Assembly (NCBI GenBank): GCA_964016885.1
Contig: OZ024743.1
Coordinates: forward strand, 325,996,001-326,060,000
From: Eledone cirrhosa
Lineage: Eukaryota
Length of the DNA stretch: 64,000 bases
Direction of reading: 5' to 3'
Both the position numbers and the translations under genes were made by a program. This document shows, piece by piece, positions 24,528 through 37,455 of the stretch. The number at the start of each line of letters is the position of its first letter. Position 1 is the stretch's first letter. Below the pieces are notes generated by a model, which ran no database searches, had not been told where the DNA came from, and saw only the letters and a list, made by a program, of their open reading frames with translations.

Positions 24528-24574
24528 TGCTCCGAAGAATCCAAACCTCGGTTTGGAGGAAACAGCTGTAAGCA
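24528..24574 (+). ncRNA. Minimal type-I hammerhead, family D (CCGAAGA core)
   Basis: TGCT-CCGAAGA-A-TCCAAAC-CTCG-GTTTGGA-G-GAA-ACAGCTGT-A-AGCA. Confidence 0.75.
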
Positions 24575-24627
24575 CAATAATGTTTTGAACAGTTCTTTGA
24601 TTCTTATATTTCATATATATATATATA

Positions 24628-25030
24628 CTAGCAGATTTACCCGGCGTTTGAAATTATGCTAAGAATATACAGCTAGGAAGTAAATTGAATGGAAAATCCC
24701 ATAAGGATTTAGTTTTTATGGGTTTGCTGACACAAGCATGTGACTTAGAAGAAAATCGATGCTCGCTTAAGAGCCTTGTAGTGCAGAGAATAAACACAAA
24801 AAAATGTGCAAGCTACAGCTGAAAGGTTGTAGGTCCCAACAGTTTGAATGGAAACTCGTGGGTCGATTTGAAACATTTTTATGATGCGACCATCTTAGCG
24901 ATATGTGCAACGGGCACAGAAAATTTGGTCAAATTCGGTTGGGAATTGTAAAAGCCTTAGCTGTCCAAAGTTGTCCACAGACACACACACACACACACAG
25001 ACACATGTTCGCTTTTATATATATAGATAT
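24628..25030 (-). mobile_element. Non-autonomous Helitron-like element (second copy at ~63174-63570, +)
   Basis: In the + copy the 5' end reads TCTATATATATAAAAGCG followed by GT repeats, and the 3' end reads ...CGCCGGGTAAATCTGCTAG|T. Confidence 0.6.
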
Positions 25031-25129
25031 ATAGATATATATGAAAAGGTAAACAGAAATAACAACACAATCGGTACCGTATATGGAAGGTATATATTAG
25101 GTTAACGCTTGATATAGCAGAAAGAGGGT

Positions 25130-25163
25130 CTTAACGTTTCGGACGCTAGTCCTTCATCAGAAG
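25130..25163 (-). ncRNA. Minimal type-I hammerhead, family E
   Basis: Minus strand reads CTT-CTGATGA-A-GGAC-TAGC-GTCC-GAA-ACGT-T-AAG. Confidence 0.75.
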
Positions 25164-26138
25164 GAAGAATGAGAAATAAAATAGATTGAGGGGACGGGCG
25201 GGTTGGAATTGGAAAAAATGTCTTCAGATAAAAATAACAATATATATATATATGTGTGTGTGTGTATGTATGTATATATATATATACATATATATACATA
25301 TATATGTATGTGTGTGTATGTATGTGTATTTATATATACATGTATGTCAGGTCACCAGTTGGTGCTACTGGTAGCATGTATCCCAGTACAACCTGTCCCA
25401 TGGTCGGGTCGTTGACGACTAAACTGGCAACCCCACCAAGGTTTCTTGGTGAGGAGGGTGACATTGGACATCCTGCAGGACTAAAAACAAAATCTGTCAA
25501 AGGGAAAAGGAGCTCTTAAGAGTCAATGGCCATCCACAATCACCGGGAGAGATGACCCCCTTAGCCTTTGTCAAGGCAGAATTCTAGGAGAAGGAAAACT
25601 CTGATAGAACACCTGCAACCCTGATGGTATCCAATGATGTTGACTTGTTCTTCTTTTTGGTAAATATCATCTTGGTTAAGAGAGTGGGACTGGCTTTGTG
25701 CAGTGCCTTTGCTCACTATAAAAGCTTCGCGGCACAGGCATTGCTTTATATCTTGAGATCTCTCTGCACTTGTCATCACATGGTACCATGGGCCCAGCAC
25801 TATGTGTCAATAATTGTCACAAGTGTAGTGTTTGTACCAGAGTTTTCAAGTCGCTGGCTGGACTAAAAAGTCACACTTGTTCAGCGCATCGGTAGAGATT
25901 CTCCTACATGGATATAAAGTAGTGGCCGTACTCGAAAACTAGTTGGCAGCCACCATATACATATATATATATATATATATATATATATATATATATATAT
26001 ATATTCATTAGTTAAGCAAAACAAGGCCACAAATTTCACAAGGAAGACATTATTAAAAGATTGTCAACATATTTTAGTTTGATGTAAGGAATGTAGAGAA
26101 TAATAATAATAATAATAATAATAATAATAATAATGTCG

Positions 26139-26257
26139 GTTTACAATTGTTTCGCTACTCCATATAATATTTCTGGATCAGATGACTATCTATCATTATT
26201 GACCTGGTTCAGTTGAAAATAATTAACATATTTAAAAACAGAGCGGCTCATCGGAAC
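26139..26257 (-). ncRNA. Type-I hammerhead, family F (Penelope 3' region, long stem II insert, CCGATGA core)
   Basis: Minus strand reads GTT-CCGATGA-GCCGCTC...GAGTAGC-GAA-ACAATTGT-A-AAC. Confidence 0.65.
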
Positions 26258-33752: not shown

Positions 33753-34025
33753 GTAATTGTGGACAATTTTTTGTCTTTATTATTTTCCTTTGAAAAGGGC
33801 GATGGATTGGCAGTATCGGTAGAGGGTCGGATGCCATGCTTTCCAGCATAGTTATGTCCCTTTATGGTCTGAGTTCAAATCCTGCCGAGGTTAACTTTGC
33901 CTTTCATCCTTACGGGGTCGATAAAATAAAGTACCAGTAATGCACTGGGTAATTGCTGGCCTTGTGCCAAATGTAGAAACAATTATTTTCCTTTGAACTT
34001 TTTTTAATGTTTTTATGACCAGTAA

Positions 34026-34215
34026 CAGACCTGCCAACCTCTAAAAACCTATAAAAAAAACTATAAAAAAGGCTTCAAGGCGGGGAGAAATGAGGCAAAA
34101 TTGGGAGATTTTACATAATGAAAGCTATACCCATTTTCACAAGAGAAGATATCTTTCACCCACCTCAAAGTTGGTGAAAGATCTCCTCGTCGGACAGAGA
34201 GAGTTGACAGGTCTG
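34026..34215. mobile_element. MITE with CAGACCTG TIRs and 6-bp TSD; related copy at ~47581-47783
   Basis: CAGTAA|CAGACCTGCCAAC ... GTTGACAGGTCTG|CAGTAA. Confidence 0.75.
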
Positions 34216-35760
34216 CAGTAATATATTGAACTTGTTGCTGTACGTGGACTTAGCATGACTGAACGATTAAGGATAGTCAATGCTGAAATATTACTGCGTT
34301 TATTAATAAGACGCTTGTATGGTTCTGATGGAAGTGTTATAGACTATATGTGTTGAGGTATTTCGTTTCATCTTATAGTATTTTTTAACCTCAAATCTGA
34401 CAAAGTACTAGTAATATACTGAGTTGATTTAGTCAAAATATCTAATTTCTCTATAAAGTGCTTAAAACACCGAAACAGTATATATTTCAAATTAAACAGG
34501 CATAGAGTGTGAAATTTAAAACATCAATGTTGTTGAATTATTGCAGTGATATATTTGTTATATATAATTTATATAGAGAGAATGAACTGGTTTCGACAAT
34601 GAATATTCCAGTTGTTCGATCAACGGAACAGTCTGCTTATGAAATTAACGTGTAAGTGGCTGAGCATTCCATAGACATGTGTACTCTTAACGTAATTCTC
34701 AAGGAAACTTAGCGGGATACAGTATGTGCTATGACTATTCCTTTGAATTACATGTACAATAATCCGACAGGCTACTAAGCATTTTCCGTCTACCCAATTT
34801 TACTCACAAGGCGTAAGTCAACCCGAGGTTATAGTAAATGACACATGCTCAAGATGCCATGCAGTGGGGTCTAAGTTGGGACCTAATAATGTCGAAGTGA
34901 ATTACTTAACCATTCGGCCAAGCCACGTCCTTTGTCCTTTGTCTAAGGATAACCAATGGATTTTTTATTCCTTGTCTTCCTCTTACCAGTTTCGAAAATT
35001 CTACAAAGAGTTGTGGGTTCTCTCCTTGCTCCTCTGACTCATCCACAAAAATATCAATAGACTTGTAGTGCAAATGTAGGAACGGGCAATTGGAAGACCT
35101 ATTTAATAGACACAGTCTATTAAATAACAAGCAAGGAAAACTACATACAAAAGAAAATCTCTTTATAATTAAACTATATAAGATTAATCAAATAATACCG
35201 TGTAGAAACATTAACATACTCAAATAATCCAACATTTGGATTGGCAGTACCGGTAGAGCATCAGACACCATACTTTGCAGCATAGAGTTATGGCCCTTTA
35301 CGTTCTGAGTTCAAATCGCTCCGTGGTTGGCTTTGCCTTTCATCCTTACGGGGTCGATAAAATAAAGTACCAGTGATGCACTGGGGTCGATTTAATCGGC
35401 TCTCCCCTCCTTCCCTCCCTCCCTTCAAATTGCTGGCATTGAGCCAAATGTAGAAACGATTAATTACAAGGAAAATAATGTAGTGTGTACATTTTCTTTT
35501 GATTATTTTTGCTCAAGTATTAATGAATGCAAGGTCGAATGATAAATAAATACCTTATGAAAATATAATTTTATTGTATCCAGAATTGTTGGCAGGAATA
35601 ACTTGCAAAGTTACAAATCAACAGCATAGATTCGGGAGAGTGTGTGTTCAATGAACAAGGCAGATTCATCTGAAAGTGGAAGGAGACTATTCTGTAGATT
35701 CTTTGTGGGTTGTTAATCTAATGATCTTTTTTTAATTTCTTTTCATGCTTTTCTCTAAAG

Positions 35761-35916
35761 CTTTGGTCAGCCCTGTGGATGCTCATGACTCCGCGAATGC
35801 TTTAAATGCACATCCCGACGTCAACTGCTATTGGAATAAAATGATGGGAAAAGTAGTGGAACAAGCAGGACCTTATCTTTATCCTTGCAGTATTGAATAC
35901 AGTCTTATTTGTGCCG
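35761..35916 (+). CDS. OTOP: Otopetrin exon, end of loop plus TM6 (PYLYPCSIEYSLICA)
   Basis: Polypyrimidine tract ending CTAAAG| and G|GTAAGT donor. YLYPxxIEYSL is a signature otopetrin motif. Confidence 0.93.
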
Positions 35917-37408
35917 GTAAGTCATCAGCTCATTAATTCCCTGGCTTCTAGTGTGTGTTGGACCTCCGTCGGTTTCGACAACGAATGTTCCAGTCGATTT
36001 GATTAACGCTCGTGAAATTAGCGGTCAAGTGACATTCCACAGACATATATACTCAAAATGTATTTCTCAGGGTGATACGGCTGGCGCACTGCATTGGAGC
36101 ACTGGGAAATAAATTGTGCTGCTGAAGAACACTATGCACAGTCGGGAATTGAACTCACAACTTTACGATCGTGAGCCGAACACCTTAACTACTAGGCCAC
36201 GTGCCTCGTCACTCACTTTCAGTATATAATAATTACAAGGACCCTTAATCTTAACCGAAACATTTTATCTATCTGTTTCCATTTTGCAGTAAACTTAATC
36301 CATGATCCGGTTAACCACCACCACGTCTTTGGGAGCCTTTAGTGGGGATAAATGCAATATCTTACTGCATTTCTTCGTACTCTAGCAACACATAAACATT
36401 CCTTTCTTACTTCCTATGCTGGGTCCGTCAACTTATATATATATAGAGAGAGAGAGGTGGGTAGAGAGAGTGGAGAAGTGACTCACTAGTTGATATATAT
36501 TAAGAAAATAAGAAACAGTAGAAAATGCTAATCGAATTTTATCATGGAAAAACAGAAAAACATTTTTTTTAAAGTTACAACTAACTTTTTTTAAATGTTC
36601 TTTTTTAAAAATGTTCTGTTAACTTTAAAAAAATGTGTTTCTTTTACATGATAAAATTCTATTAGCATTTTCTACTGTTTCTTATTTTCTTAATATATAT
36701 ATAAATTAGTCAGTAATATACATTACATTTTAATGAATGATATCACTTAGAATATAATTCAGGGAAGCTTATAAATACAAATATAGAAATATCTCAAATA
36801 AGGCTCAGAAAACTATCTTATTTCATTAAGATGGCAAATTGTGTTACTTTGGCTTGTGAAACATCAGTAAGGCGAAGAATTTGCTAAACCTTCTAGATTT
36901 AGGTCGCTTGACAAGAAGTTTACTACTGGGTGAGACGTCTATAAGGTTTCTTTATTTTAAAGTACTTTGCTGCCTGCGATCTTCCCTTTGGTTAATTCTG
37001 ACCCTTATTTGAAATAGTTCTATATTACTGTATATATATATATATATATATATATATACAAATATAAATTAGCGAGAATCGCATTTCGGCTATTGGAAAT
37101 TAGCGAAAAACAACTTCCGAGATGTGTGGTAAGCGATCCATAGAAACGAGTGAACTAGAGCAACAACATACGTTAAAAGGCCAAACACACTGAGACGATG
37201 GTTAAACCATTATCCGCAAAGCCATAGAAACGACCAAGCTTATATATATATAGTGAAAAATTGAACAGGAACAAAACAGAGAGGCAGTACGAACAAAGGT
37301 TTATTAATTTCACGCTCTTGAGAGTGGGGTATATATATATATATATATATATATATATATATATATATATAAGTTATAAGAATCAAAATTCTGTTCAAAT
37401 CATTTATA

Positions 37409-37455
37409 TGCCTACAATTGTTTCCTCCAAACCGAGGTTTGGATTCTTCGGAGCA
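37409..37455 (-). ncRNA. Minimal type-I hammerhead, family D
   Basis: Minus strand reads TGCT-CCGAAGA-A-TCCAAACCTCGGTTTGGA-G-GAA-ACAATTGT-A-GGCA. Confidence 0.75.

What the first reader, a model, noticed from the sequence alone, without database searches (positions are those of the whole stretch)
24528..37455. Compensatory change in the stem III palindrome of family D
Seen: the copies at 24528 and 63624 have ACAGCTGT while the diverged copy at 37409 has ACAATTGT, a double substitution that keeps the palindrome. Stem I changes from U-A to U-G. Core and stem II are identical while the flanks diverge. Inference: selection for dimer-forming stem III, and so for ribozyme function, in the lineage.
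Basis: seen in the sequence. Interest (0 to 1): 0.75.

Follow-up and report, generated by a model that had tools for sequence, protein, structure and literature searches.

The report
Wobble-step evolution of transposon ribozyme dimer
The motif is a hammerhead RNA fold in the end repeat of a Penelope-like jumping gene; successive subfamilies changed its self-complementary third stem one base at a time without breaking a pair, which likely reflects selection for two RNA copies pairing up and, as predicted but untested, cutting themselves, a known design.

Summary
The stem III difference is real, but the three window copies prove little. The two ACAGCTGT copies are one insertion inside a 3.6-kb inverted duplication, and the stem I U-G is private to one copy (1 of 41). 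Family D is the pseudo-LTR of an autonomous Hydra-type Penelope-like element (832-aa RT + GIY-YIG ORF), with a non-coding type I hammerhead. Genome-wide, the subfamilies form a ladder: ACGATCGT > ACGATTGT > ACAATTGT (reached twice) > ACAGTTGT > ACAGCTGT. All five changes keep every pair of an intermolecular helix III, passing twice through G.U. Of 23 subfamily groups, 17 are Watson-Crick, 6 G.U and none mismatched; 731 G.U copies stand against 15 A.C copies. Neutral probability is about 0.005-0.014, or 0.03-0.07 if CpG decay dominates. The core is nearly invariant across subfamilies (1 change, 32 expected), but inserted copies decay neutrally. Cleavage is untested, and the core has C at U4. 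Palindromic helix III and dimer cleavage are published, and this scan noted them in other families of this genome. The ordered wobble path is the modest new part.

The parts
24095..24617 (+). 5'-truncated 3' end (pseudo-LTR) of the Hydra-type Penelope-like element, youngest subfamily, between (TA)n tracts
   Evidence: blastn of the 4.19-kb unit against the window; cluster 4
24528..24574 (+). Type I hammerhead motif: stem I TGCT/AGCA, core CCGAAGA (C at position 4), 7-bp stem II, GAAA, GUA site; predicted cut between 24570 and 24571
   Evidence: sequence, descriptor scan, homodimer fold
24562..24569 (+). Helix III self-complementary octamer ACAGCTGT (G-C centre)
37366..37591 (-). 5'-truncated copy of an older subfamily (cluster 1)
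37409..37455 (-). Hammerhead motif with helix III ACAATTGT (37414-37421) and a private stem I A>G at 37412
37598..37766 (+). Inverted tail piece of the same insertion (head-to-head layout typical of Penelope-like elements)
63581..64000 (-). Duplicate of the 24095-24617 insertion (runs to 64135, beyond the window)
63624..63670 (-). Hammerhead motif, identical to 24528-24574; helix III at 63629-63636
22399..25978 (.). One arm of a 3.6-kb inverted duplication (other arm 62217-65821) that holds both ACAGCTGT copies
126..333 (-). Short 3' fragment of the same family that begins 5 bases downstream of the predicted cut site and has no ribozyme

Best explanation
Family D is the end repeat of an autonomous Hydra-type Penelope-like retrotransposon whose hammerhead is predicted to fold only as a pair of copies, and selection on the transposing lineage likely kept that intermolecular helix III paired as it changed one base at a time through G.U wobbles. 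Shown: element anatomy, subfamily ladder, the five pair-keeping changes, near-invariant core, neutral decay of inserted copies. Predicted: the monomer does not form the hammerhead, while the homodimer folds into the double hammerhead. Inferred: the two partners are the upstream and downstream pseudo-LTRs of one tandem transcript (4.19 kb apart). They would pair through helix III and stem I and cut slowly (C4 core, probably helped by the element's protein), releasing a unit-length RNA with one inert hammerhead that serves as template. Both partners carry the same sequence, so each change alters two pairs at once, and only G.U-compatible steps survived in source elements.
For: Intact 832-aa ORF with RWR, DKT, YRDD, CxCX5C, CxxC and CxH, between hammerheads 4172-4199 bases apart. 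Two trees that exclude the helix III centre give the same order: 188-column pseudo-LTR with the centre masked and 1549 upstream columns from 44 copies, with G.U copies as a grade at 100% support. Counts with one stem II pattern: 4680 total, 2076 G-C, 731 G.U, 15 A.C. In the GUC-site subfamilies about 42 of the first 100 listed of 3083 matches are CGATTG and 1 is CAATCG (hand count). Subfamily groups: 17 Watson-Crick, 6 G.U, 0 mismatched, of 23. P(all five steps keep pairing) is 0.005 with GTR flank rates, 0.007 with the copy spectrum, 0.014 with ts=4tv. Changes against flank expectation: core plus 15.2/16.2, 1 vs 32; stem II, 12 vs 35; stem I, 3 vs 15; loop II is free, with 21 changes in 4 sites. 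Position 17 changed twice, only between A and C. Homodimer MFE is the double hammerhead, -34.7 vs -11.7 kcal/mol per monomer. The central two bases cannot pair in a monomer.
Against: No cleavage or RNA data. The core has C at U4 in 22 of 23 groups, a change reported to lower activity considerably in vitro (PMC3088659, passage). No pile-up of copy ends at the cut site: 1 of 386 3' pieces starts there (sample biased to loci holding the motif). The central tandem G.U is predicted weak (-3.4 kcal/mol vs -6.4 for A-U and -11.1 for G-C; no better than U.U at -2.9 or G.A at -3.2), yet it lasted at least 0.10 substitutions per site, so selection is mild. Three of the five steps are CpG-type transitions; if CpG decay dominates, P rises to about 0.03-0.07 (hand calculation). 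The change rate at the centre (5 vs 9.9 expected, P=0.12) is not significantly low. The two steps that need a dimer give only P 0.12-0.22. Several old groups have 2-6 copies, and one node has 63% support. Published Hydra hammerheads often have an unpaired centre in helix III (PMC8557442 File S2). In the anole element PAc, hammerhead cleavage was dispensable for insertion in vitro (PMC11167929). The homodimer MFE of the 37409 copy forms helix III but not stem I.
Confidence: 0.7

Rival explanations
1. The fold is selected as an RNA-RNA clasp or protein-binding site that joins the two pseudo-LTRs (or two RNAs) in the RT/endonuclease particle, and cleavage itself is negligible.
For: Fixed C4 core. 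No copy ends piled at the cut site. Copies are made through uncut motifs (tandem and inverted copies). PAc catalytic mutants still insert in vitro, and the motif cuts only with protein (PMC11167929, section 3 part 2).
Against: Unpaired catalytic bases C3, G5, A6, G8, A9, G12, A13 and A14 are invariant in 23 of 23 groups, N7 is free, and position 17 varies only within the bases allowed for cleavage. A mere clasp would not need this pattern.
Confidence: 0.15
2. The hammerhead is under selection, but the helix III centre is a free monomer loop; the pair-keeping path is chance, helped by transition and CpG bias.
For: All five steps are transitions and three are in CpG context. CpG decay is visible in old copies. 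The central-pair steps alone have P 0.12-0.22. The tandem G.U is predicted weak.
Against: Joint P is 0.005-0.07. A>G and T>C run against the G/C-to-A/T bias. The loop that is free, loop II, took 21 changes in 4 sites against 5 here. The monomer helix III is unstable (+2.4 kcal/mol). Two unrelated families in the window also have palindromic helix III.
Confidence: 0.12
3. The palindrome is kept as DNA, either as a binding site (CANNTG resembles an E-box; recalled) or by one-step palindrome correction through template switching.
For: CAATTG, CAGTTG and CAGCTG all fit CANNTG. Template switching can keep hairpins perfect (PMC8794818, search listing only).
Against: CAGTTG and CAACTG are the same DNA site in two orientations, yet only the sense-strand G.U form expanded (731 vs 15). 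Older subfamilies have CGATCG and CGATTG, which are not CANNTG. Single-change intermediates exist as large subfamilies, which excludes one-step correction.
Confidence: 0.03

Closest known systems
Hammerheads in pseudo-LTRs of metazoan Penelope-like elements (Cervera and De la Pena 2014, PMC4209133; parts 1-2 of 4 and two supplement passages read, supplement file 1 not searchable)
   Same: Type I motif in the pseudo-LTR, long helix II (7 bp), short helix I, extra base after A9, small palindromic helix III, proposed dimer action; the paper already cites covariation and palindromy as signs of selection.
   Different: C at position 4 throughout, no G10.1-C11.1 pair, and a time-ordered subfamily series with G.U intermediates at helix III, which the parts read do not describe.
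Hydra clade of C-terminal EN+ Penelope-like elements (Craig et al. 2021, PMC8557442; section 11, passages, supplement parts 2-3 read)
   Same: RW[R], DKT, CxCX5C linker, no CCHH between GIY and YIG, CxxC and CxH motifs, (TA)n insertion, and a hammerhead with unpaired bases flanking stem II.
   Different: The unit is 4.19 kb (published: generally under 3 kb). All Hydra hammerheads listed in File S2 have CUGA, and their helix III has 1-3 unpaired central bases, whereas this lineage has CCGA and an even 8-mer.
Dimeric hammerheads of amphibian satellite/retrozyme repeats and palindromic stem III survey (PMC7229834 passages; PMC3088659 section 8, passages and Fig. S8 legend)
   Same: Weak helix III with a palindromic loop; dimers cleave better than monomers.
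   Different: Those are short non-coding tandem repeats with a canonical core; here the partners would be 4.2 kb apart in an autonomous element.
Compensatory substitution through a G.U intermediate in RNA stems (PMC5381666, PMC6961544; search listing and abstract starts only)
   Same: A-U to G.U to G-C path.
   Different: Here the helix is intermolecular and self-complementary, so each step changes two pairs, and the intermediates survive as dated genomic subfamilies.

Membership tests
Hammerhead ribozyme, type I | Core C3 U4 G5 A6 N7 G8 A9 / G12 A13 A14 A15.1 / U16.1 H17 | tested here: inconclusive
   All met except U4, which is C in 22 of 23 subfamily groups. U4C is a described natural, less active variant (PMC3088659 passage).
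Hammerhead ribozyme, type I | Three helices around the core, helix I open-ended | tested here: met
   Stem II 7 bp and stem I 3-4 bp, with compensatory changes across groups; helix III forms only in the dimer.
Hammerhead ribozyme, type I | Match to an Rfam hammerhead model | tested here: not met
   No hammerhead family among 112 matches at E<=1.
Hammerhead ribozyme, type I | Self-cleavage after H17 | not testable with these tools
   No RNA holder listed; no pile-up of copy ends at the site.
Dimer-type (palindromic helix III) PLE hammerhead | Self-complementary helix III, unstable as monomer | tested here: met
   23 of 23 groups fully self-pair when G.U is counted; monomer hairpin +2.4 kcal/mol.
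Penelope-like element, EN+ | Single ORF with RT and C-terminal GIY-YIG nuclease | tested here: met
   832-aa ORF in L111-L113; YRDD at 367 and VIY..YVG at 710 found by motif. Pfam gave no significant match.
Penelope-like element, EN+ | Partial tandem pseudo-LTRs, inverted truncated copies, optional tail | tested here: met
Hydra clade | RWK, DKT, CxCX5C linker, no CCHH, CxxC and CxH, (TA)n targets | tested here: met
   RWR 51, DKT 136, CNCRANRTC 691, CNLC 789, CQH 817, against PMC8557442 section 11.
Hydra clade | Groups with Hydra RTs in a phylogeny | not tested
   No tree with reference RTs was built.

The most novel reading that the evidence does not exclude
The genome holds a dated fossil record of an intermolecular RNA helix evolving by wobble steps. 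Each new subfamily stays fully pairable with its parent (A-U x G.U -6.4, G.U x G-C -8.7 kcal/mol) but not with its grandparent (A-U x G-C -2.2). This would be direct evolutionary evidence that Penelope elements need dimeric cleavage by a slow C4-core hammerhead in vivo, and that helix III drift progressively uncouples subfamilies from cross-cleavage.
Probability: 0.3. Interest if true: 0.65.

Novelty: new member of a known kind. Interest (0 to 1): 0.42.

Why it matters
What hammerheads do for Penelope-like elements is stated to be unclear: they may process RNA or merely ride along (PMC8557442, passages), and cleavage was dispensable in one in vitro system (PMC11167929). A lineage in which core, stems and the dimer helix are conserved among source elements while inserted copies decay neutrally argues that the fold matters for transposition in vivo. 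Five natural helix III alleles and intact young copies give a ready panel for testing homo- versus hetero-dimer cleavage.

Tried and rejected
Rfam scan: no hammerhead model matched, only microsatellite noise and one tRNA-like hit. Pfam: nothing significant for the element's ORF. Coding constraint on the motif: rejected, since the ORF starts about 210 bases past the cut site, all three frames have stops nearby and subfamilies differ by frameshifting indels. First fuzzy extraction missed copies. The first copy tree was rooted on two false hits from another RT element, L132p7790 and L135m5071; they were dropped and the tree redone. My early patterns required TA at the cut site and missed the large GUC subfamilies until. 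Rows dropped: 104 of 441 de-duplicated profile hits were too short for the alignment; the outgroup group of 18 was added by hand. Sequencing runs: no RNA holder listed; contigs laid on the motif listed no helix III variant and were uninformative. Copy ends at the cut site: none enriched. Directional rates from inferred ancestral states are missing; a reversible model and the copy spectrum were used instead. Literature searches found no paper on U4C in retrotransposon hammerheads or on subfamily-ordered wobble steps in helix III; subscription papers are not covered, and the original U4C viroid paper could not be read. The passages of an octopus repeat paper (PMC13282606) hold no mention of ribozymes. 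The A-U class was not counted directly: the remainder of 1849 of 4680 is mostly A-U by the first 100 rows.
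Full report
Observation. The third copy is 82.9% identical to the others over 217 bases, and inside the 47-base motif it differs only at the two central helix III bases and one stem I base. Two qualifications follow. The two identical copies lie in a 3.6-kb inverted duplication (22399-25978 vs 62217-65821) and share the same truncation point, so they count once. The stem I U-G is private: 40 of 41 copies of that subfamily have AGCA.

What the repeat is. The window lies in a 3.0-Gb genome. Fetched tandem loci show a unit of 4172-4199 bases with one intact 832-aa ORF (L111-L113). It carries RWR, DKT, YRDD, a CxCX5C linker, a GIY-YIG-type motif without internal cysteines, CxxC and CxH, the diagnostic set of the Hydra clade of Penelope-like elements (PMC8557442 section 11); I built no RT tree. 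Copies are 5'-truncated, often head-to-head, and sit in (TA)n. The hammerhead lies about 210 bases upstream of the ORF and is non-coding. Rfam does not detect it.

Family-wide counts. One stem II pattern has 4680 matches: 2076 CAGCTG, 731 CAGTTG, and 24 in the class 'not G, not T', of which 15 are CAACTG. The remaining 1849 are mostly CAATTG by the listed rows. The A.C copies fall in several subfamilies, as expected of scattered mutation, though one insertion (L101) has A.C in both repeats. Looser patterns found older relatives: 2851 matches with another base after A9, 226 with a T at position 7 and 3083 with a cut site other than GUA, mostly GUC. Of the first 100 rows, about 42 are CGATTG and 1 is CAATCG (hand count).

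Order of events. From 441 de-duplicated profile hits, 337 were long enough; they were clustered with the four variable helix III bases masked into 22 groups, and 18 copies of the most distant relative were added as outgroup. The tree is a ladder: CGATCG (basal), CGATTG, CAATTG, CAGTTG, CAGCTG, with a side branch that reached CAATTG independently. The last three states have 99-100% support; the node that places the side branch has 63%. An independent 1549-column alignment upstream of the motif (44 copies) gives the same order from CGATTG onward, with CAGTTG copies as a grade (100% at its nodes) leading to a CAGCTG clade. CAGCTG groups are the youngest (0.5% mean divergence).

Is it more than chance? 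Five changes are needed, and all keep eight pairs in a homodimer: 17 groups are Watson-Crick, 6 G.U, none mismatched. The neutral probability is 0.005 (GTR rates from flanks), 0.007 (copy spectrum) or 0.014 (ts=4tv). Three steps are CpG-type transitions, and CpG decay is visible in old copies; if it dominated, the figure would be about 0.03-0.07 (hand calculation). The test is post hoc, and some old groups have 2-6 copies. The rest of the fold is clearly constrained: 1 change in 13 core positions against 32 expected, stem II 12 vs 35, stem I 3 vs 15, while loop II took 21 changes in 4 sites. Position 17 changed only between A and C. Inserted copies show no constraint: core 14 of 923, centre 8 of 284, flank 156 of 8467 bases (clusters 1 and 14 only). 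Selection thus acts on source elements, not for the host.

Mechanism. A single motif does not fold into a hammerhead; two copies of the 24528 motif fold into the double hammerhead with intermolecular helix III and stem I (-34.7 vs -11.7 kcal/mol per monomer). For the 37409 copy the dimer MFE forms helix III but not stem I. Octamer duplex energies along the ladder are -10.0, -5.8, -6.4, -3.4 and -11.1; A.C gives -1.0 and ACAAUCGU +2.0. The central G.U is weak and no better than U.U or G.A, so selection is mild. Each state pairs fully with its neighbour in the ladder but not with the state two steps away. I infer that the two pseudo-LTR motifs of one tandem transcript pair and cut slowly, perhaps helped by the element's protein as reported for PAc (PMC11167929, section 3 part 2), releasing a unit-length RNA whose single motif is inert, as proposed in PMC4209133 (parts 1-2 read).

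Against cleavage. The core has C at position 4 in 22 of 23 groups. U4C is reported to cut activity considerably in vitro while still allowing viroid infection (PMC3088659, passage). Only 1 of 386 3' pieces starts at the cut site (biased sample). No RNA holder was listed. PAc inserted without cleavage in vitro. A non-catalytic clasp remains possible, but it would not explain the invariance of unpaired catalytic bases. A DNA-level explanation fails on strand asymmetry (731 CAGTTG vs 15 of its reverse complement).

Relation to what is known. Palindromic helix III and dimer action in Penelope hammerheads are published (PMC4209133; PMC3088659 Fig. S8 legend; PMC7229834 passages). Hydra-clade hammerheads in File S2 of PMC8557442 all have CUGA and an unpaired helix III centre. 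Searches found no account of subfamily-ordered wobble steps in helix III or of U4C in a retrotransposon; subscription papers and one supplement file of PMC4209133 were not covered. Earlier notes of this scan describe palindromic stem III, C4 cores and compensatory changes in other families of this genome; they are unchecked leads.

Verdict. A real, lineage-level signal of selection on a known dimer-type hammerhead, in a new member of a known clade. Interest 0.42.

Noticed in passing
window 60444 (-) and 60776 (+); ORF remnants 59000-60299: A second Penelope-like element with a head-to-head pair of hammerheads, core CTGACGA and helix III ACTAGT.
   Followed up: no
window 23382 (-) and about 23743 (+): A third hammerhead family in an inverted repeat, core CTGATGA and helix III ATGCAT; the second arm is degenerate.
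   Followed up: no
window 26005-28818: Inverted repeat of about 960 bases with RT and GIY-YIG ORF remnants; my descriptor found no hammerhead in it.
   Followed up: no
window 22399-25978 and 62217-65821: 3.6-kb inverted duplication 36 kb apart holding several nested repeats; real duplication or assembly artefact was not resolved.
   Followed up: partly
L258, L270, L272, L275, L278: Five old copies end in (TA)n within or just after GAAA/helix III, so their 3' end lies inside the hammerhead; these were selected by a pattern ending in TA.
   Followed up: no
L111 about 1000-1030; window 37670-37690: A hairpin with a G.U pair lies in the tail about 100 bases past the cut site and could be the RT start stem-loop (read by eye).
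   Followed up: no
5' arm of stem II in many loci: The first three bases of stem II vary often between copies (TCC to ACC, ATC, TTC and others), more than the 3' arm appears to; patterns fixed part of the 3' arm, so this may be sampling bias.
   Followed up: no
window 38300-43556: Decayed L1/Tx1-like non-LTR element with endonuclease and RT pieces (RVT_1 E=1.2e-16).
   Followed up: no
window 19265-19747 and 45886-46716: Exons of an otopetrin gene on the + strand (Pfam Otopetrin E=3.3e-77 for the second; the first by eye); the copies at 24528 and 37409 would lie in an intron.
   Followed up: no
window 9383-10599: Helitron helicase remnant (Helitron_like_N E=6.9e-12).
   Followed up: no
window 36133-36206 (-): tRNA-like match above Rfam's gathering score (32.9 bits), probably a SINE head.
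   Followed up: no
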